Shown piece after piece: positions 7,133 to 29,916 of a stretch of 32,125 bases of DNA. Below the pieces are notes generated by a model. It was not told where the DNA came from and did no database searches. It saw only the letters and a program-made list of their open reading frames with translations. Position 1 is the stretch's first letter, and every line of letters starts with the position of its first letter. The stretch is taken from the IMG/VR virus record IMGVR_UViG_2703718850_000013. One strand, written 5' to 3'. The position numbers and the translations under genes were made by a program. Source of the DNA: a virus (lineage: Duplodnaviria; Heunggongvirae; Uroviricota; Caudoviricetes).

Positions 7133-7909
7133 TTATTTTATGGGTAAAATTTTCTTTATTTCATTTTCGGCGGCAAAATGATTGTTTAACTGCTCATAAT
7201 ATTTTGACATCATAACTGAATTTTTTAGACGCTGAATCTTATCTTTTTTCCATTGTGCGAGATAATAGGAACCTGAAAGTTGTTCTACAGCAGAGTAAAA
7301 ATATTCTTTAAGGGTAGAGCACCAAAAATAGTTAAAGCTAACAATATCTTTTTCAAGTTGATACGACTCAAAGACATAACCTGCATTGGCATTCCAATAT
7401 TTCATTATGCGAATAAGAGGCTTAATTAAATTGTTATTATTTTTATTGCAATTAGTTAAATCAGTATTGAACGCATTGGGATCGGTATTCATCCAACGGT
7501 TCAAAAAATCCTGGTTGGAAGGGATTTGATAACCAAATAAAATATTATGAGATGCAGGGACAAGCTCGAAAGTAATATGATTAAGGTTCAATTGAATAGT
7601 AGGGTGGCTTTGCTTTATTTCAGATGTACGATAGTAATAATTTACAAAACCCCTTAGCTTGTTTAGGTAGGTCTGAGGCTGATATATTACATTTTTGAAT
7701 ACAACCATATAATCAACATCAGAAGAAGGATCATAGCTACGAGGAAGCATTGTATTACGTGAATATGAGCCAAATACAAAATGACTAACAAGTTCACCAG
7801 CAAAATAACCATTCAGTCTGTTTTTTATGGTTGCAATTGAATTCGTTATTGTAATATCTCTTTGATAAGCATTGCTTTTAATAGACTCAAGATAGGTACT
7901 GACTGTCAT
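7133..7909 (-). CDS. pol-beta-type nucleotidyltransferase, SMODS/CD-NTase-like
   Basis: FGSYSRNT...SDVDY (hG[GS]-x9-13-DxD) plus a later acidic residue (FELVP); AAGGAA SD 6 nt upstream; start lies 2 nt after the upstream gene's stop. Confidence 0.6.
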   Translation of the reverse strand: MTVSTYLESIKSNAYQRDITITNSIATIKNRLNGYFAGELVSHFVFGSYSRNTMLPRSYDPSSDVDYMVVFKNVIYQPQTYLNKLRGFVNYYYRTSEIKQSHPTIQLNLNHITFELVPASHNILFGYQIPSNQDFLNRWMNTDPNAFNTDLTNCNKNNNNLIKPLIRIMKYWNANAGYVFESYQLEKDIVSFNYFWCSTLKEYFYSAVEQLSGSYYLAQWKKDKIQRLKNSVMMSKYYEQLNNHFAAENEIKKILPIK

Positions 7910-7911
7910 GT

Positions 7912-8415
7912 TTATTCCTTGTCAATATTATACTTAGTAAAGCCTTGGTTAACATCTCTTTGAGTTTTCTCATAAGCCCACCGAGGAATATTTGGCGAAC
8001 TTGAATTAAGTTGATTGCGTCGATCAGAGTAACTCGTAAGTTTTTCAATCAAAGTTTTATCAGTAAAATCAAAATTAGAAGTCAATATTTCCCTAAATAT
8101 TCTAACTTCATTCTTTAATTTATTATATTCATTTGCTGCTGATTTATGAAGTGCAGCACGCTTACTTGGGTTAAGAGACGTATTTAATGCAGTTAGAATT
8201 GTAGCAGTTATGGAAATAGCTACAACAGCATTGGCTGTACTCTTGATTGCGGCAATACCACTCAAAGCGGTTAAGATTGCTAATGGTACACCGAACCACA
8301 GATTCAGCTTATCCCATCTATCAGAAACATTATAATGAGATTTAGAAGAGTACAGAGCGTCCTCTTCTATACGATGACACTCAGAAATGACTGTTTGGAT
8401 GAGCTTCTGATTCAT
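7912..8415 (-). CDS. 2TM membrane protein, SLATT-like effector candidate (start re-chosen)
   Basis: About 40-aa N-terminal region, two TM helices (LWFGVPLAILTALSGIAAI; AVVAISITATILTAL), helical C-terminal region; tightly coupled to the nucleotidyltransferase gene. ATG at 8413-8415 has a GGAG SD; the track start is a GTG two codons upstream. Confidence 0.55.
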   Translation of the reverse strand: MNQKLIQTVISECHRIEEDALYSSKSHYNVSDRWDKLNLWFGVPLAILTALSGIAAIKSTANAVVAISITATILTALNTSLNPSKRAALHKSAANEYNKLKNEVRIFREILTSNFDFTDKTLIEKLTSYSDRRNQLNSSSPNIPRWAYEKTQRDVNQGFTKYNIDKE

Positions 8416-8579
8416 AAACACTCCAACAAATCCGATTCCCTAACAGTATAACATGGTAGGGTTAATAAATACTATAGGTACTTCCCTCTGAATAGACACA
8501 ATCGGGAAGTTTCGCCGCGAACTATTTTTTTTGCATATTAAATATTTTAAATAACACAAACAAAACCTGGATAAACAAA

Positions 8580-12429: not shown

Positions 12430-12898
12430 GATGTGAAGTCACTCAGTCCATCACAAACATTCGACGCACTACAGGAATTTCTAGATAACCAGTTGATTTT
12501 CATAGGGATGTCACTCGATCTTACACCACAGACGTTAACAGGTTCGACCGCAGGGGCATCATTCAGTGCCTCGAAGTTAACAGACAAAATTCAGCAAAAT
12601 ACATTTCTTGCAAAACAAAACAACCTGGTTAAGTCAGTACTTCAACCTTTGTATATTAAGTGGCTCAAGAATGAAATGCTAAATAACCCGATGTTGAAGG
12701 ATTTGCCATTTAGTAAATTTACTGAACTAACTGAATGTAATTTCATTCCACAACGTCATATTAGTCTAGACCCACTGAAAGATTTACAGACTGAGATTCT
12801 CGCAATGGAAAATGGATTAAAGAGTAAAGAACAAATAATTTCTGAGATGGGCTATTCACCAGTACTAACCCATGAGCAGATTACTAAGGAAGAAACAG

Positions 12899-15014
<2,116 letters not shown>

Positions 15015-15015
<1 letters not shown>

Positions 15016-15452
15016 TGCGAACTTCAGACTACACAATACGGAAATTTTTGATTAATAATCTCAGTACTTTGGTAAATCTTCAATATCAATCGAGAGCAAC
15101 GGTAGACGACAAACCAATGTTATACATCGGTGACAGTACTGTAACACGTTCACGCATTCAAAAAGCAAATACATTAATTAATGGTCAATTAATACCACGT
15201 GGGATTAATTATCTCTGTGAATTTAGAGTGGACTTTGTAGCAGTAGGCGAAAATTATAAACTTGCATCAGATGAAATTAGTAAAGTGATTGATGCAATCT
15301 ATGCAAGTGGTTTTATTAATGAATTGAACAAACTACTTCCAATGGATGTTTTCAATGTTGTTCTGGAAGAGAGCTTAATGACTACCCAGGCCGAAGCAAC
15401 TAATACGATGTATGTGCATACACAAACTATATCTTTTAGCTATGGGGAATAA
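15015..15452 (+). CDS. hypothetical neck / tail-terminator-like protein (145 aa)
   Basis: Position only. Confidence 0.4.
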
Positions 15453-15455
15453 TTT

Positions 15456-17138
15456 ATGGCTTTTATTACTAACAACACAAGTGTATGGATTAACACCGAC
15501 ACATTAAACAGTGACCCCAAATCGAAGGGATTTAAAGAAGTACCAGAATTAAGCGGGTTCCCTTCATTCGGTCACAGTACTGCAACCCTTGCTATTGAAA
15601 CATATGACTCTGAATACATCGAAAAAGTAGCAGGTGATAGCACATATGGTGATGTCACTATTACGGTTAACTGGGTTCCTGCTAAACATAAGTTTCTTGA
15701 TGACATCGTAAAAAGTCGCCAATTAGTACAAATGAAGGTAGAGATCCCCGATGAAGGACAGAATGACCTTACGGTTAACTATGCACTTTATAATGGTTAT
15801 CTGGCTTCTGTATCCACCAGTGGTGATTATGATTCTGTTACTTCCCGTTCCTACGTATTCACCCCAAACGAACAACTTTCTTCGGGTATTCTTGACAGTA
15901 CGATAGTCCCTCTAAATCGCGGAGACTGGGGCGTAGGTGCAAACGGTATTGAGTTTCCAAGTTATCAGGGGCGTGACGGTAATGCTTTTATTAAGATCCC
16001 TGGTGCAGGTTCACCAACAGGGACAGATGTACTCGGTATTAATAACCTTGATTCGAACTTTGGTACACAATTGGTTATCAGTAAGACAGGTACGCCAATA
16101 ATTAACGTGCGTAACTATGGTGCATCTATGGGGGCATGGTACAAGGTCTATACCAGTGCTGATAAACCTACACTGACAGAACTGGGTGCTGCATCAAGTG
16201 CATCCCTTGCAGACTACGTACCGATTACCCGTACTATCAATAGCAAACCACTAACTGCTAATATTACACTACTGGCTTCTGATATCGCTGATGTATACAG
16301 TAAGACGTATATAGATCAGAACGTAGTCCCAAAAGTATTCCAGTTAAACGGTCATGCACTATCCGGTACGGCATTAAACTTAGTTGCCGCAGATATTCTT
16401 GATGTGTATTCACAGACTCAGGTTGATACTTCATTTGTTAAAAAAACAACTACTGTTAACGGTTTAAGTCTTTCCCAGAATATAACACTGACAGCCGCAC
16501 AACTCCCAGATATGGCAAGTATTGTTTTTACTAATAACACATATGTACCAAAAACATACTTAATCAACAATAAGCCATTATCAGGAACTAACATTCAATT
16601 AGTTGCTGCTGATATTCCTGATGTGTACTCACGTACCCAGTCAAATGATCTATTTGCACTACGTATCACCACTATTAACGGGTATGCTCTTAACAGTAAT
16701 ATAGTACTGAATTTTGATGATGTAGGAACATATTCAAAGAAACAGATCGATGACAAAGACAAGGTTCTGAAGGAAGATATTGATACGAAGGTAACAATTG
16801 TAGATGATATTCTTAAACTAAATACCCTTGTAAATAATTCATTAGAAATAGATTTGAGTGATAGTAAAACTACATTCACCGTGACTCTATCACAACCAAC
16901 GTCAAACTTCTCTGTACTAAATGCAAGTGGTAATGACAAAAAGAGTCAAACATTTCAGGTGCTTATTAAGCAGGGTACAGGGGCAAATAAAATATCCTGG
17001 CCTACAAACATTTTATGGTCTTATGGGCGTGTTCCAGTATTAACCTTTACAAAAGATTCTACTGATGTATTTCAGTTTGTCACAGTAGACGGGGGTAGTA
17101 CTTGGTACGGCTCTCTACTAATGGCAGATATGAAATAA
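15456..17138 (+). CDS. tail-tube-domain protein with C-terminal tail-fibre-like tandem repeats
   Basis: N-terminal region (…ITVNWVP…YALYNGYLASVSTSGDYDSVTSRSYVFTPNE) is homologous to the 158-aa protein at 20048 (…LSVNWKPG…YSIVNGYISSDVVGGDFDAVATREFVMTITGE); the C-terminus carries about five 35-aa repeats (xNGxxLSxNIxLxAADIxDVYS…). Confidence 0.6.
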   Translation: MAFITNNTSVWINTDTLNSDPKSKGFKEVPELSGFPSFGHSTATLAIETYDSEYIEKVAGDSTYGDVTITVNWVPAKHKFLDDIVKSRQLVQMKVEIPDEGQNDLTVNYALYNGYLASVSTSGDYDSVTSRSYVFTPNEQLSSGILDSTIVPLNRGDWGVGANGIEFPSYQGRDGNAFIKIPGAGSPTGTDVLGINNLDSNFGTQLVISKTGTPIINVRNYGASMGAWYKVYTSADKPTLTELGAASSASLADYVPITRTINSKPLTANITLLASDIADVYSKTYIDQNVVPKVFQLNGHALSGTALNLVAADILDVYSQTQVDTSFVKKTTTVNGLSLSQNITLTAAQLPDMASIVFTNNTYVPKTYLINNKPLSGTNIQLVAADIPDVYSRTQSNDLFALRITTINGYALNSNIVLNFDDVGTYSKKQIDDKDKVLKEDIDTKVTIVDDILKLNTLVNNSLEIDLSDSKTTFTVTLSQPTSNFSVLNASGNDKKSQTFQVLIKQGTGANKISWPTNILWSYGRVPVLTFTKDSTDVFQFVTVDGGSTWYGSLLMADMK

Positions 17139-19996
17139 TGAAACCACACAATATAGATAATGCATATCAAATGATCGAAGGTCAGTTTAAGTTCTTGGCA
17201 CGTAATACTGGCCTTACAACAAATAATAAGACACAGCACTATGTATTAAACCCAGATAATGTACTTGCAAACAACCGTCACTTTATTGCAGAAACTGGAT
17301 GGGAGGCACAGCCGGAAGGTGATGCAACTACAGAAGGTCAAAGCCTCCAGATTCTGGGGGCAATATATGTGTATCAGGCAACTAAAGACCCTTTCTATCT
17401 ACAGAAGGCAAAAGAGTACTTTAACGCATATCACAAGGCGTTCTATCGTGGTGCACCATTTCCAGATCCACCGAGTTCATCACTACGCTGTAATTGGATT
17501 TGTAATGGGAAGGCTCCAGTACTGGCACACTACCCATTAGATCCAGAATATCCGACGCATGGCGGTTTTAAAGGGACACTATTCACATGGGCTAATGGCC
17601 TTACAAAGATCCCACATGGTGCACCACACTGGGGTGAATACCTCGATGCAGTATGGTTTGCCTTCCCTAAGCGTGCGGGACTTGGCTGGAATCAGGTTAA
17701 CGCAACTGCTTATCTGTGGCTTGCCAATGAAGACTCAATAGACTGGGACACTAAAGCACCAACCTATGACGTCGAATGGATCATTGATCGTACCGGACGT
17801 AAGGTAGACTCAAACGGCACTGTACTGCAATCCGGTCTAACTGGTCAGGAAGGTACAGTACAGTTAAAGAATAAAACCATTACTGGTGAATATCGTTTTA
17901 ACTATGCAACCCGAAACCCTGTAGAACATGGCGGGTATATGTTCAAGCGTAATGAACGCTGGCATAACCGACCTGTACACGTACCGATTGATAACTATGG
18001 TTCTTTGGACTTCTCTGATAATGCATCAGATGCCGAATTATGGTTTTGTCAGGCAGCCAAGCTACTTTGGGATATTACAGGAGAACGCCAGTATTATCTT
18101 GCGTGGCAATGTGCACTATTAACCTGTTATGGATATTCAGATATTGACAAGTACGATATGTTCTTTCGTAAATCTACTATTGCCGTAACACCTTTTACTG
18201 ATGGTATTTCATACGACTACTTCTACCCAAGTGAGCAAGTAGCATCATATTCCCGTGATGCACAGGGTTATATTGTAATAAATCAAAGTGCATCCGCACA
18301 GACGATGTTAGAACAACAATCAATCTGGTTTAAATTCAATAATAACTCAAAGTTTCATATTGAATATGGTGGTGTTGATAATACCAGTACTGCAATGTCA
18401 GTTTCTGCTGAAGTCACAGTGAATAAAACAAAAACAGAAGAAGGTGCAATTGATTATCGGTGTGGTCTACCAATGACTAATCCAGATGGCTCTATCACTA
18501 CAATGGACATTCCTATGAATCGTTTTACACGTGTAATGAAACCAGATGGCTCTAATTATATGACTGCTGATCTACGTATGATCGCCGATTATGGAGATAA
18601 CACGGTAACAAACTTTGAATATCAGAGTGGAGTACTTGGAAATTATTACGATAACGTCGTGTCTACAACAATGGATGGTGACGGGGGACAGGTGGTGGGG
18701 TTTTGGATATTCACACCAGAGACTGCCAATATTCAATCTTTTACCTATCGTTCATATGATGATGATTTTAACTTTCGTATAAGTGATGATAATAAATGGC
18801 GTTGGTGGGCTATGCTCCCTGCAACAAATGGTGAATGGGTTACAAAGACTTTTACTATTGCTGACTTCAAACTAAACGGTTATCAACCCGATCACCCCGA
18901 AATTGAAGATCCAGATAACCCAGGAGAATGGATTCAACCTGATCCTATTCCCGCAAGCCCAGTACTAACGAACCGTGAATCTTTCACACTGCTACTTGAT
19001 GCAGATCCAGTAAATGGTGTGAATGGGAAGATTGACTGGTATTGTATTAATGATTTGCCTGCGATGTATACAGATGGTGGGACAGGTGATTATTCGGTCA
19101 CAGTACTGCTTACGTTTAACGACACAACTGGTAATGGTTACACAGCCCGTTTAGGTGACTGTACTATTAAGGATTATATGCTAGATAGTCTTGCGTATAC
19201 TCCGGGTTTAATTCCGTTCTCTAACATTACCGATCCCTATGCCCAGTTATATTCTGGGTGGCGTGGTCTACCGTATCCGGGTTATCAACTACCGGCGATC
19301 TGGTGCTTTAAAGGAACAGAAATAGATCATACTCGCTTAAATAACAGTATCAATTTTCTATATGATTCTCAGGCATGGTTTACAAATAAATTTAAACCAT
19401 CATTACCAGGACCATGTGCACAGGCTTTCGTATGGAACAGACAGGACGCTTTAGCATATGCCCCTGATGGTAAGCCAGATCAATTCATAATGCAGCACTG
19501 GTACGCCGAAGCATGGAGTGGATACGAACCAAGGGCTTTCTTTGGTGGGTGTGATGCAGTACATGAATTATGGTCACGACAAGACAGTACTGTAATACCT
19601 CCTAAACTAATATCTTTCTGCCAGAACTGGATGAACTATCTAAAATGGTTCATGAAAAATAATGGCGGTAAAGCTCCTACCTATTTTAGGGATAATGGTT
19701 CTGTAGAATATGATGGCTTTACCCCTCATATGTCCGGTCTATGGTTAGCAGGGGCATGTATGATGGCTATCGCCGGATATCCAGATCATGAGCTAATTCA
19801 ATTACTATTTGATGAAATACAACTTAACTATGCAGTTATTTCACCAAATCATGTAATGAATGGTACATGGCCTGCGTCAATCAGAACAGGTAATGAAACA
19901 ACTGCCGAAAACAATAGTATGTTCTTTGGTTTCTATTCGGGTGAACTTTTACGCGGATTGGGGCTATATGTGCATTACTACAATCTTCATAAATAA
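17138..19996 (+). CDS. large virion-associated protein (953 aa), possible carbohydrate-active tailspike or depolymerase
   Basis: TAATG overlap with the upstream gene (track start 17102 is TTG); aromatic-rich (many W/Y); no catalytic motif identified. Confidence 0.5.
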   Translation: MKPHNIDNAYQMIEGQFKFLARNTGLTTNNKTQHYVLNPDNVLANNRHFIAETGWEAQPEGDATTEGQSLQILGAIYVYQATKDPFYLQKAKEYFNAYHKAFYRGAPFPDPPSSSLRCNWICNGKAPVLAHYPLDPEYPTHGGFKGTLFTWANGLTKIPHGAPHWGEYLDAVWFAFPKRAGLGWNQVNATAYLWLANEDSIDWDTKAPTYDVEWIIDRTGRKVDSNGTVLQSGLTGQEGTVQLKNKTITGEYRFNYATRNPVEHGGYMFKRNERWHNRPVHVPIDNYGSLDFSDNASDAELWFCQAAKLLWDITGERQYYLAWQCALLTCYGYSDIDKYDMFFRKSTIAVTPFTDGISYDYFYPSEQVASYSRDAQGYIVINQSASAQTMLEQQSIWFKFNNNSKFHIEYGGVDNTSTAMSVSAEVTVNKTKTEEGAIDYRCGLPMTNPDGSITTMDIPMNRFTRVMKPDGSNYMTADLRMIADYGDNTVTNFEYQSGVLGNYYDNVVSTTMDGDGGQVVGFWIFTPETANIQSFTYRSYDDDFNFRISDDNKWRWWAMLPATNGEWVTKTFTIADFKLNGYQPDHPEIEDPDNPGEWIQPDPIPASPVLTNRESFTLLLDADPVNGVNGKIDWYCINDLPAMYTDGGTGDYSVTVLLTFNDTTGNGYTARLGDCTIKDYMLDSLAYTPGLIPFSNITDPYAQLYSGWRGLPYPGYQLPAIWCFKGTEIDHTRLNNSINFLYDSQAWFTNKFKPSLPGPCAQAFVWNRQDALAYAPDGKPDQFIMQHWYAEAWSGYEPRAFFGGCDAVHELWSRQDSTVIPPKLISFCQNWMNYLKWFMKNNGGKAPTYFRDNGSVEYDGFTPHMSGLWLAGACMMAIAGYPDHELIQLLFDEIQLNYAVISPNHVMNGTWPASIRTGNETTAENNSMFFGFYSGELLRGLGLYVHYYNLHK

Positions 19997-20007
19997 AAAA
20001 AGGAAAC

Positions 20008-20026
20008 GGGTAACAGGACGTTACCC
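20008..20026 (+). terminator. stem-loop GGGTAAC-AGGAC-GTTACCC just upstream of the major tail gene
   Basis: 7-bp perfect stem, 5-nt loop, A-rich before and AT-rich after; may be an attenuator or RNA stability element. Confidence 0.35.
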
Positions 20027-20047
20027 TAATTAAATAAGGAAATTAAA

Positions 20048-20524
20048 ATGGCTTTTAATCGAATTTTCGCAGCGAATAACGTTGTAGTAGAAATTGCAGA
20101 AGCACCAGCAGGTGGTGGTCAGGCAACCACTTTTACAGTAATTGAAGAAGTTGCAGCTTTCCCGGCAGCAGCAGGTGCTGAGTCTACAATTATCTCAGTA
20201 AATACATTTGGTAAGCAGTACGCACAGAAGCTTTTAGGATCTCGTTCTGTGCCAGATCTAACCCTATCGGTGAACTGGAAACCAGGGGCAGTAGGTCAAG
20301 AGATGTTAGTTACCGCAGCTCAAAAACAGACGCTTATGCAGGTAAAAGTAACTTATTACGAAAACATCGCTGATACCGATGGAGTGGGTTATTACTCGAT
20401 AGTTAATGGCTATATTAGTTCTGATGTTGTCGGTGGCGATTTTGACGCTGTAGCAACACGTGAATTTGTTATGACAATCACGGGCGAACCTGTAGCAGTT
20501 GGTGAAATTGCAGCAAAACCATAA
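20048..20524 (+). CDS. major tail (tube) protein, lambda V-like position
   Basis: 158 aa, immediately upstream of the chaperone/frameshift pair and the tape measure gene; shares its fold-level motifs with the N-terminus of 15456..17138. Confidence 0.65.
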   Translation: MAFNRIFAANNVVVEIAEAPAGGGQATTFTVIEEVAAFPAAAGAESTIISVNTFGKQYAQKLLGSRSVPDLTLSVNWKPGAVGQEMLVTAAQKQTLMQVKVTYYENIADTDGVGYYSIVNGYISSDVVGGDFDAVATREFVMTITGEPVAVGEIAAKP

Positions 20525-28985: not shown

Positions 28986-29010
28986 GGGGCATTAATGCCC
29001 CTTTTTATTT
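28986..29010. terminator. bidirectional intrinsic terminator GGGGCATTAATGCCCC + T-tract
   Basis: Perfect 16-bp palindrome flanked by an A-run upstream and a T-run downstream, between convergent genes; it overlaps the endolysin stop codon. Confidence 0.7.
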
Positions 29011-29451
29011 GTTAATTAAATCTTTAATCATCTGGTTAAGTCTATTCGGTGTCTGACGATACCATAAACTATCCTTTGCCTGTTTAATTGCTTCTGTGTA
29101 ATTATTGTTTAGTAATGCAATGATCATCTTTTTAAACTTCTTAGTACCACTTAAGCCTAACTGAAAAATCATGATAACCATGAAGTCTTCCCAGTCCTGT
29201 GGTAATTTCAAATTTAAGGTAGATAAATTACGTTTGGCAATGCCAATATCTTTATCCAGTAGTTTATCTGCTTCATCCTCGTTAATGCCGTTAGGGAACG
29301 TCTCAGAGGCTTTTAGAAGATGTCCATATCCAATCGTATCTTTGTTCTCACTACATTTATACACCCAGAATTTACCATTGCGATAATAACCCATATGGGC
29401 CTGGTATTCTTTCGTACCTTCATATATTTTTAATTTTTCTATTAAACACAT
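29005..29451 (-). CDS. endolysin, GH24 T4-lysozyme-like (start corrected)
   Basis: DTIGYGHLL and SLWYRQTPNRLNQMI align with T4 lysozyme TIGIGHLL and SRWYNQTPNRAKRVI; the ATG at 29449-29451 has a GAGG SD, whereas the track start at 29505 adds 18 residues with no counterpart. Confidence 0.85.
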   Translation of the reverse strand: MCLIEKLKIYEGTKEYQAHMGYYRNGKFWVYKCSENKDTIGYGHLLKASETFPNGINEDEADKLLDKDIGIAKRNLSTLNLKLPQDWEDFMVIMIFQLGLSGTKKFKKMIIALLNNNYTEAIKQAKDSLWYRQTPNRLNQMIKDLINK

Positions 29452-29487
29452 AAATACCTCATAAACTATTATTTGTGGGGTATTTAT

Positions 29488-29916
29488 ATGAAATGGACAA
29501 TGCATGATCCTGAGACATGGGATTATGAAGATATAAATGACGGGAGGTATGCAGCTTTTGTATATATGATCACTTTTGACGATGGTTCATATTATTTTGG
29601 TGTAAAGTCAATCTTCAAAAGTATTCGGGATGTAAAGAAGCTGAAGCCAACTACAAAGGAATCCAACTGGGAGAATTATTATTCTTCCTCGAAGAAGGTG
29701 CAGGCAATGGTTGATTCAGGCCTGAACTATGAAAAACAAATACTATGGTGTTTCAGAACGACGAATGAAGCTGAGCAAGTAGAAGCGGCATTGATTCTAT
29801 TCTTAGGACAGCAATCAAATAATTTAAATCTTGCCGTGATGTGCAAAGTACGGCTTGGTAAAAATCGTTCTGAAACATTCAAAGTACTGCAACAATTATT
29901 AGAGAGGTTATCATGA
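29488..29916 (+). CDS. hypothetical protein, possible stand-alone GIY-YIG nuclease domain
   Basis: FVY-x10-YFG then Arg, Glu and Asn at roughly GIY-YIG spacing; weak. Start set at ATG 29488 (track start 29473 is TTG). Confidence 0.35.
   Translation: MKWTMHDPETWDYEDINDGRYAAFVYMITFDDGSYYFGVKSIFKSIRDVKKLKPTTKESNWENYYSSSKKVQAMVDSGLNYEKQILWCFRTTNEAEQVEAALILFLGQQSNNLNLAVMCKVRLGKNRSETFKVLQQLLERLS

What the first reader, a model, noticed from the sequence alone, without database searches (positions are those of the whole stretch)
15456..20524. Duplicated tail-tube domain, one copy fused to fibre repeats, flanking a 953-aa aromatic-rich protein
The proteins at 15456 and 20048 share an N-terminal domain (…VNW.P… and …NGY.S…D.V..R.FV motifs). 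The longer one continues into about five 35-residue tail-fibre-like repeats. Between them lies a 953-aa protein with no lambda counterpart. A lambda-like tail operon normally has a single tube protein, so this looks like an inserted module, possibly tail-decorating fibrils plus a depolymerase.
Basis: partly seen in the sequence, partly recalled or inferred. Interest (0 to 1): 0.6.

Follow-up and report, generated by a model that had tools for sequence, protein, structure and literature searches.

The report
Tube-anchored phage fibre carrying glycosidase-like protein
A prophage tail operon encodes a side fibre whose base is a copy of the tail-tube protein and whose tip is built to hold a large sugar-cleaving-type protein; the layout is widespread and conserved, and I found no description of it.

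Summary

The reading "inserted module" is only partly right. A fibre with a tube-fold N-terminus, followed by a plain tube gene, is ancestral to this lineage: all 69 assessable IMG/VR relatives have both. Tubes group with tubes and fibre domains with fibre domains across genomes.

Only the distal end was exchanged. The last ~100 aa of the 560-aa protein plus the 952-aa gene form a cassette also found in rV5-like and P2-like myoviruses. In rV5 both homologues (gp43, gp42) were detected in virions.

The 952-aa protein models confidently (pLDDT 88) as an (alpha/alpha)6 barrel. Its closest structures are GH48, GH105 and GH8 enzymes, not beta-helix depolymerases.

All three genes are under purifying selection (dN/dS 0.05-0.09).

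Best reading: the tube paralogue forms a ring that anchors side fibres tipped with a glycan-active protein. Ring position, copy number and substrate are inferred, not shown.

The parts
15015..15452 (+). 145-aa gene directly upstream; candidate tail terminator / tail completion protein (context)
   Evidence: Position after the FII-like 98-aa gene (Pfam Phage_attach, E=0.005, below cut-off). An orthologue in L010 weakly matches Pfam Tail_completion_gp17 (E=0.01). The assignment is weak.
15456..15896 (+). 560-aa protein, residues 1-147: tail-tube-fold N-terminal domain (the anchor)
15897..16190 (+). 560-aa protein, residues 148-245: conserved 'shoulder' region ending ..VYTSADKPTLTELGA
   Evidence: Conserved together with the tube-fold domain in more than 190 fibres of 460-1563 aa (phmmer) and in phage DCP80 (residues 3-245). 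The AF2 model is of low confidence here.
16212..16760 (+). 560-aa protein, residues 253-435: five ~36-37-aa fibre repeats (..Y/FVP.T..INGK.LS.NI.L.A.DI.DVYS...)
   Evidence: Self-diagonal scores at offsets 37, 73 and 110 far above shuffles. Matches PHROG tail-fibre families and Vibrio phage fibres at 31-33% identity.
16830..17138 (+). 560-aa protein, residues 459-560 plus stop: adaptor C-terminal domain (motif QGTGANKISWP.N..W.YGR.PVLTF)
   Evidence: 44-53% identical to the C-terminus of rV5 gp43-type proteins. A homologous domain ends the gene immediately upstream of every 950-aa family member examined (L012, L013, L014, PVP-SE1; E 3e-15 to 3e-24).
17138..19996 (+). 952-aa tail protein, rV5 gp42 family; predicted (alpha/alpha)6 six-hairpin barrel with two beta-rich inserts
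20008..20026 (+). Stem-loop GGGTAAC-AGGAC-GTTACCC between the 952-aa gene and the tube gene
   Evidence: Equivalent hairpins with different stems, and GGA in the loop in 27 of 34, occur upstream of the tube gene in relatives.
20048..20524 (+). 158-aa plain tail tube protein (the major tube candidate)
   Evidence: PHROG 158, 3.7e-16; Pfam Phage_TTP_12, E=8e-4, below cut-off. Lies immediately upstream of two 96-aa ORFs in the tail-chaperone position and of the tape-measure gene (PHROG 13674, 1.5e-56). Orthologues of 149-167 aa are present in all relatives.

Best explanation
The 158-aa protein is the major tail tube protein. The 560-aa protein is a side-fibre subunit that is anchored not by a separate collar or adaptor but by its own N-terminal domain, an ancient paralogue of the tube protein.

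Proposed mechanism:
1. The tube-fold domain assembles as a ring, or part of a ring, in register with the tube.
2. A conserved shoulder region and a five-repeat shaft project outward from it.
3. The last ~100 residues form a docking domain for the product of the translationally coupled next gene.
4. That 952-aa product has an (alpha/alpha)6 glycoside-hydrolase-like fold. It binds, and probably cleaves, a surface or matrix glycan during adsorption.

What is shown: homology, fold predictions, synteny, cassette sharing, purifying selection, and virion presence of the rV5 homologues.

What is inferred: ring formation and its position on the tail, copy number, physical docking of the 952-aa protein on the C-terminal domain, catalysis and substrate.
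For: Tube fold of the fibre N-terminus:

Ancient, retained duplication:
- Tubes score higher with tubes of other genomes (59-119 bits), and fibre N-domains with fibre N-domains (35-95 bits for the window's own; 117-129 between L008 and L010).
- The two paralogues within one genome score 44-68 bits.

Universal pairing:
- 69 of 69 assessable IMG/VR loci have the fibre followed by a 149-167-aa tube gene. In 55 the two are directly adjacent.
- The same order occurs in E. coli, Enterobacter and other prophages and in phage DCP80.

The anchored proteins are real fibres:
- More than 190 relatives of 460-1563 aa share the N-terminal ~235 aa.
- Among the fibre relatives listed, most carry S74 chaperone, Collar or 'pyocin knob' C-termini.

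Exchangeable distal end:
- DCP80 keeps residues 3-245 but has a different shaft.
- Its downstream gene has a T4 gp37-like N-terminus instead of the 952-aa type.

Adaptor-plus-950-aa cassette:
- The C-terminal domain always precedes a family member, with overlapping or abutting stop and start. This was seen in four unrelated tail contexts.

Other support:
- rV5 gp42 and gp43 were detected in virions by mass spectrometry (PMC3606486).
- The 952-aa fold is six-hairpin glycosidase-like. It has many invariant acidic and aromatic residues across 37 homologues of 41-78% identity.
- dN/dS is 0.089, 0.053 and 0.093 for the three genes.
Against: - No virion data exist for this lineage. The closest isolated phage shares only ~30% capsid identity.
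- The 560-aa model is confident only for residues ~10-147 (mean pLDDT 51.5).
- No multimer modelling was possible, so ring formation and the fit between six-fold ring symmetry and three-fold fibre symmetry are untested.
- The 952-aa protein matches no CAZy-type Pfam or NCBIfam model. At sequence level it gives only a weak GH76 hairpin match (E=0.027), so catalysis is not established.
- No fusion of adaptor and 950-aa protein was found that would prove their interaction.
- In this window the portal gene carries an in-frame stop, so this particular copy may be defective.
Confidence: 0.6

Rival explanations
1. Minor tube variant that co-polymerises with the 158-aa protein along the whole tail. 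Fibres or fibrils tipped with the 952-aa protein would then decorate the tail shaft, in the manner of SPP1 gp17.1*, the lactococcal tail-protein extensions, or the first reader's 'tail-decorating fibrils'.
For: The N-domain has the complete tube fold and aligns with the tube protein without large indels. Nothing in the sequence restricts it to one ring.
Against: Known shaft decorations are small Ig or FN3 domains made from the same gene, which I state from my own knowledge of SPP1. Here the appendage is a fibre of up to 1563 aa with trimer-type C-termini, which is hard to fit at many rings. The N-domains form their own orthologous group, which evolves faster than the tubes (61% against 76% identity between the window and L004). 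That suggests a specialised interface.
Confidence: 0.2
2. The tube-fold domain forms the head-proximal ring next to the terminator, giving neck or whisker-type fibres rather than tip-proximal side fibres.
For: Gene order: the fibre gene lies between the putative terminator (145 aa) and the tube gene in every relative. Only two small genes separate the capsid gene from the fibre gene.
Confidence: 0.15
3. The 952-aa protein is a non-catalytic receptor-binding or structural tip protein that merely uses a six-hairpin scaffold.
Confidence: 0.3
4. The module is decaying cargo of a defective prophage and has no current function.
For: The portal ORF of this window is interrupted by an in-frame TAA at 12430-12432.
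Against: dN/dS is 0.05-0.09 for all three genes against a 98-99% identical relative whose portal is intact. Intact ORFs occur in hundreds of genomes and in 80 viral contigs.
Confidence: 0.05

Closest known systems
rV5 gp43 + gp42 (Vequintavirinae; PVP-SE1 genes 51 and 50)
   Same: The 952-aa protein is 54% identical over its full length to gp42-type proteins. The last ~100 aa of the 560-aa protein are 44-53% identical to the gp43 C-terminus. Gene order and stop/start overlap are the same. Both rV5 proteins are virion components (PMC3606486).
   Different: In rV5 the adaptor is a ~222-aa protein with a P22-tailspike-like N-terminal domain, on a contractile-tail baseplate. Here the adaptor domain sits at the end of a repeat shaft anchored by a tube-protein paralogue in a lambda-like non-contractile tail. 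The function of gp42 is undetermined in rV5 too.
T5 collar system (p140 tube-like ring, p132 collar, pb1 L-shaped fibres)
   Different: In T5 the ring, the collar and the fibre are three separate proteins, and the fibre binds the collar. Here the tube fold and the fibre are one polypeptide and no collar gene is evident.
Ur-lambda Stf, monocin and F-pyocin side-fibre attachment
   Same: Trimeric side fibres are attached to a six-fold tail through N-terminal domains that form a ring (PMC13455828, section 2.3).
   Different: Those use Ig-like or OB domains that encircle the distal tail protein or the central fibre, or a galectin domain on the distal tail protein. None uses a tube-fold domain fused to the fibre.
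SPP1 gp17.1 / gp17.1* (tube protein and its extended form)
   Same: Two tube-type proteins with the same core, one carrying a C-terminal extension that is displayed outside the tube.
   Different: From my own knowledge, SPP1 makes both forms from one gene by frameshifting and the extension is a small domain. Here the two are separate ancient paralogues (29% identity) and the extension is a full fibre.
Six-hairpin (alpha/alpha)6 glycoside hydrolases (GH48, GH105/GH88, GH8, GH76)
   Different: 7-12% identity and no family-level sequence match. Two large beta-rich inserts (about residues 120-290 and 358-680) interrupt the barrel. Catalytic residues are not assigned.

Membership tests
Siphovirus tail tube protein (lambda gpV-type) | Sequence match to tube-protein profiles | tested here: inconclusive
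   PHROG 158 'major tail protein' is matched by both proteins (1.8e-18 and 3.7e-16). Pfam Phage_TTP_11/12 are matched only below the curated cut-offs (14-20 bits against 26-28).
Siphovirus tail tube protein (lambda gpV-type) | Tail tube fold (beta-sandwich plus helix plus long hairpin) | tested here: met
Siphovirus tail tube protein (lambda gpV-type) | Gene immediately upstream of the tail assembly chaperone pair and the tape measure gene | tested here: met
   Met for the 158-aa gene, with the caveat that the chaperone identity rests on position only (Pfam Phage_TAC_13, E=0.059); the tape measure is well supported. Not met for the 560-aa gene, which lies one or two genes further upstream in every relative.
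Siphovirus tail tube protein (lambda gpV-type) | Polymerises as stacked hexameric rings around the tape measure protein | not testable with these tools
   No multimer prediction or virion data were available.
rV5 gp43-gp42 type adaptor + tail-protein cassette | Full-length homology of the ~950-aa protein | tested here: met
   54% identity over 99-100% coverage to 520 phage records; PHROG 2871, 1215 bits.
rV5 gp43-gp42 type adaptor + tail-protein cassette | Upstream gene ends in the conserved ~100-aa C-terminal domain, with overlapping or abutting stop and start | tested here: met
   The same holds in L012, L013, L014 and PVP-SE1.
rV5 gp43-gp42 type adaptor + tail-protein cassette | Both proteins present in virions | not testable with these tools
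   Shown for rV5 only (mass spectrometry, PMC3606486).
Six-hairpin glycoside hydrolases (clans containing GH8/GH48, GH88/GH105, GH76) | (alpha/alpha)6 barrel fold | tested here: met
Six-hairpin glycoside hydrolases (clans containing GH8/GH48, GH88/GH105, GH76) | Sequence membership of a defined GH family | tested here: not met
   No Pfam or NCBIfam hit. A profile search of PDB sequences gives only GH76 at E=0.027 over 29 residues.
Six-hairpin glycoside hydrolases (clans containing GH8/GH48, GH88/GH105, GH76) | Catalytic acid/base residues in the barrel centre; measurable activity | not testable with these tools
   Invariant D63, E67, D299, E301, D341, E393, D771 and E937 exist (numbering of alignment A1; subtract 1 to number from Met at 17138). 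No structural superposition or assay was available.
Beta-helix tailspike depolymerases | Right-handed parallel beta-helix catalytic domain | tested here: not met
Trimeric tail fibres with C-terminal S74 intramolecular chaperone | Peptidase_S74 domain at the C-terminus | tested here: not met
   Absent from the 560-aa protein. Present in many fibres that share its N-terminal anchor. The window's fibre has replaced that end with the adaptor domain.

The most novel reading that the evidence does not exclude
These phages use a mode of side-fibre attachment that I did not find described. The fibre polypeptide begins with its own tail-tube paralogue, which is built into the tube as a dedicated ring, so no collar or distal-tail-protein decoration is needed. 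On this socket, distal modules are exchanged freely. One such module is a portable 'adaptor domain + six-hairpin enzyme' cassette that moves between contractile and non-contractile tails and targets a glycan common to many Gram-negative hosts.
Probability: 0.4. Interest if true: 0.7.

Novelty: new variant of a known kind. Interest (0 to 1): 0.55.

Why it matters
How side fibres are fixed to six-fold tails is an active structural question. Ur-lambda, monocin, T5 and F-pyocin each turned out to differ (PMC13455828). A fibre that carries its own tube-fold ring would be a further solution.

The layout is common. It occurs in more than 190 protein clusters, in 80 IMG/VR contigs, and in prophages of Enterobacter, Cronobacter, Klebsiella, E. 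coli, Pantoea and Salmonella.

The conserved N-terminal ~235 aa could serve as a fixed socket for engineering host range.

The adaptor-plus-950-aa cassette links these prophages to the poorly understood conserved part of the Vequintavirinae fibre locus. It gives a testable hypothesis, a six-hairpin glycan-active enzyme, for a protein found in more than 500 sequenced phages.

Tried and rejected
Searches that found nothing:
- Megablast of the region against phage genomes: no match.
- Sequence searches of PDB with the 560-aa and 952-aa proteins: nothing meaningful. A profile search gave only a weak GH76 hairpin match.
- Pfam and NCBIfam: no family for the 952-aa protein.
- Search among 120 homologues for a fusion of the adaptor domain with the 950-aa protein: none. 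Their extra length is C-terminal, or in one case an N-terminal P2 gpI domain.
- A close isolated phage, which would give a known virion morphology: none. The best is DCP80 at ~30% capsid identity, and its record looks taxonomically inconsistent.
- Literature searches for tube-fold-fused fibres or six-hairpin tail proteins: no description found in the library. That library is incomplete.

Searches that gave too little:
- AF2 of the whole 560-aa protein: only the N-domain is usable.
- Compositional test for recent insertion of the cassette: GC3 is not distinct.
- The search for related loci with a broad alignment failed for lack of conserved stretches.
- The genome-contig scan returned only two Pseudescherichia loci, so the host of the window was not identified.

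Full report
**1. What is in the sequence**

The window is the structural half of a lambda-like, non-contractile-tailed prophage. Its gene order is:
- gpA-type large terminase, then a 158-aa ORF
- portal
- a fused protease-capsid protein
- a 98-aa FII-like protein and a 145-aa protein
- the 560-aa protein, the large protein, and the 158-aa protein
- two 96-aa ORFs in the chaperone position
- a 753-aa tape measure
- a distal-tail-protein-like 184-aa protein, then 214-aa and 129-aa proteins
- a 1185-aa J-like tip protein
- a lysozyme

The three ORFs of the finding are real. The large gene starts at ATG 17138, overlapping the TAA of the 560-aa gene (TAATG). It therefore encodes 952 aa rather than 953. 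The 99%-identical homologue P0121 is also 952 aa.

**2. The shared domain**

- The 560-aa and 158-aa proteins align at 29% identity over 95 residues (E=6e-13).
- Both match PHROG 158 'major tail protein'.
- Both match the Pfam lambda tube families only below threshold.
- An AlphaFold2 model of the 560-aa protein is confident only for residues ~10-147.

**3. The rest of the 560-aa protein**

- Residues 148-245 are a conserved 'shoulder' region.
- Residues ~253-435 are five 36-37-aa repeats, far above shuffled controls. They resemble repeats of Vibrio phage fibres.
- A predicted helix follows at residues 428-445.
- Residues 459-560 form a distinct C-terminal domain.

**4. This is a lineage-wide ground plan, not a local insertion**

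An exhaustive HMMER search with residues 1-160 found 131 clusters at 50% identity. About 100 of these are proteins of 600-1600 aa with the domain at the extreme N-terminus. About 15 are plain ~150-aa tubes.

More than 190 collected proteins share the first ~235 residues. Among the fibre relatives listed, most end in S74 chaperone, Collar or 'pyocin knob' domains and are named tail-fibre proteins by their sources.

In prophages of E. coli, Enterobacter and others, and in metagenomic contigs, the gene order is the same as in the window. In E. coli ESBLEC_MG48 the element is ~35.6 kb, lies in ybhA, and has a serine recombinase at one end.

In 80 IMG/VR contigs, typically 25-36 kb long, 69 loci could be assessed:
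- All 69 have the fibre gene followed by a 149-167-aa tube paralogue.
- 55 have the two genes directly adjacent.
- 10 have a small extra ORF between them.
- 1 has a split fibre gene.
- 3 have the window's 560 + 952 + tube layout.

Across five genomes, tubes score best with tubes and fibre N-domains with fibre N-domains. The duplication therefore predates the divergence of the lineage.

**5. What was exchanged**

Phage DCP80 keeps residues 3-245 but has a different shaft. Its downstream gene has an N-terminus like T4 gp37-type distal fibre subunits.

In the window's subfamily, the distal end is a cassette shared with Vequintavirinae:
- The 952-aa protein is 54% identical over its full length to rV5 gp42-type proteins.
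- Residues 459-560 of the fibre are 44-53% identical to the C-terminus of the small gp43-type protein encoded immediately upstream of gp42.

The same pairing, with overlapping or abutting stop and start, occurs in three further contexts:
- a P2/HP1-like Pseudomonas prophage
- a Salmonella prophage with contractile-tail genes
- an rV5-like contig

The upstream protein is 173-226 aa in those cases, and each has its own N-terminal part. In rV5, gp42 and gp43 were both detected in virions, and the gp43 N-terminus resembles the P22 tailspike particle-binding domain (PMC3606486).

The C-terminal domain is therefore best read as the dock for the ~950-aa protein, and the N-terminal part as the phage-specific anchor. 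No fusion protein that would prove the interaction was found.

**6. The 952-aa protein**

With 37 homologues, AlphaFold2 gives pLDDT 88.2 and pTM 0.84. The model is an (alpha/alpha)6 barrel. It is assembled from helices at both ends and in the middle, and is interrupted by two beta-rich inserts.

- GH88 and GH76, ranked just below

No beta-helix protein appears.

There is no sequence-level family membership, and I could not map catalytic residues. The family is unusually conserved for a host-recognition protein. It keeps 40-55% identity across phages and prophages of Enterobacterales, Pseudomonas, Stenotrophomonas and Shewanella, with many invariant acidic and aromatic residues. This suggests an enzyme acting on a widely shared glycan. 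The BASEL study reached a similar general view for the conserved part of the Vequintavirinae fibre locus, and also stated that the roles of those genes are unclear (PMC8594841).

**7. Selection**

Against a relative 98-99% identical in these proteins and with an intact portal, dN/dS is 0.089 for the fibre gene, 0.053 for the 952-aa gene and 0.093 for the tube gene. GC3 of the cassette does not differ from its neighbours.

**8. Mechanism and its limits**

I propose the following:
- The tube paralogue forms a ring in line with the tube.
- The fibres project from that ring.
- The fibre tip holds a glycan-active protein.

The closest precedent is T5, where a tube-like ring underlies the collar that anchors the fibres. 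There, however, ring, collar and fibre are separate proteins. A 2026 review-style section lists four attachment modes for flexible tails, and none uses a tube fold fused to the fibre (PMC13455828).

These tools cannot decide whether the ring is distal, proximal or repeated along the shaft. They also cannot decide how trimeric fibres fit a six-fold ring.

**9. Verdict**

This is an uncharacterised but widespread variant of side-fibre architecture, joined to a mobile adaptor-enzyme cassette.

Noticed in passing
window 20008-20047 (stem-loop 20008-20026; Shine-Dalgarno AAGGAA 20037-20042); also L004 14520-14567, L008 11627-11673, L010 14064-14115 and 30 further IMG/VR loci: A hairpin is conserved just upstream of the plain tube gene. 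In 34 distinct intergenic regions there is a 7-13-bp stem of differing sequence (compensatory changes). Mean z is -3.7 against shuffles. The loop contains GGA in 27 of 34 cases, and the hairpin is followed 15-30 nt later by a TATAAGGA-type ribosome-binding site. A hairpin-loop GGA plus a Shine-Dalgarno GGA is the layout of CsrA/RsmA-repressed leaders. A terminator or RNA-processing hairpin between the fibre and tube cistrons is the alternative.
   Followed up: partly
window 7133-8421, minus strand: A two-gene CBASS-type defence system (oligonucleotide cyclase 7133-7909; 2TM/SLATT effector 7912-8421; PADLOC 373 and 234 bits) sits just upstream of the small terminase gene. In the close relative L003 and in the E. 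coli relative (L007), the same slot holds an OLD-family ATP-dependent nuclease. This looks like a defence-cargo hot spot of this prophage family.
   Followed up: partly
window 12430-12432: An in-frame TAA splits the portal gene into 330-aa and 171-aa ORFs (..ELREG*DVKSL..). Relatives have an intact 506-510-aa portal. Either this copy is defective or it is a sequencing error.
   Followed up: partly
L002 (PQ671644.1, Escherichia phage DCP80) 1-23000: The record is labelled Straboviridae/Gaprivervirus and is 141 kb long. Its first ~23 kb are nevertheless a lambda-like siphovirus head-tail module of the same lineage as the window, and nearly all genes are annotated 'hypothetical'. This may be a chimeric assembly or a mislabelled record.
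   Followed up: no
window 29473-29916: A SegE-like GIY-YIG homing endonuclease ORF (Pfam, 3.8e-17) lies next to the lysozyme gene (29005-29505, minus strand). The E. coli relative also carries a GIY-YIG nuclease, but at a different place.
   Followed up: no
P0240 (1097 aa), and P0210 and P0221-P0239 (1425-1657 aa), homologues of the 952-aa protein: Some family members are fused to other tail parts. One has an N-terminal P2 gpI baseplate domain (PF09684). Several have 500-700-aa C-terminal extensions, some with PF21722. So the six-hairpin module can be wired directly into a baseplate and is not always the distal end.
   Followed up: partly
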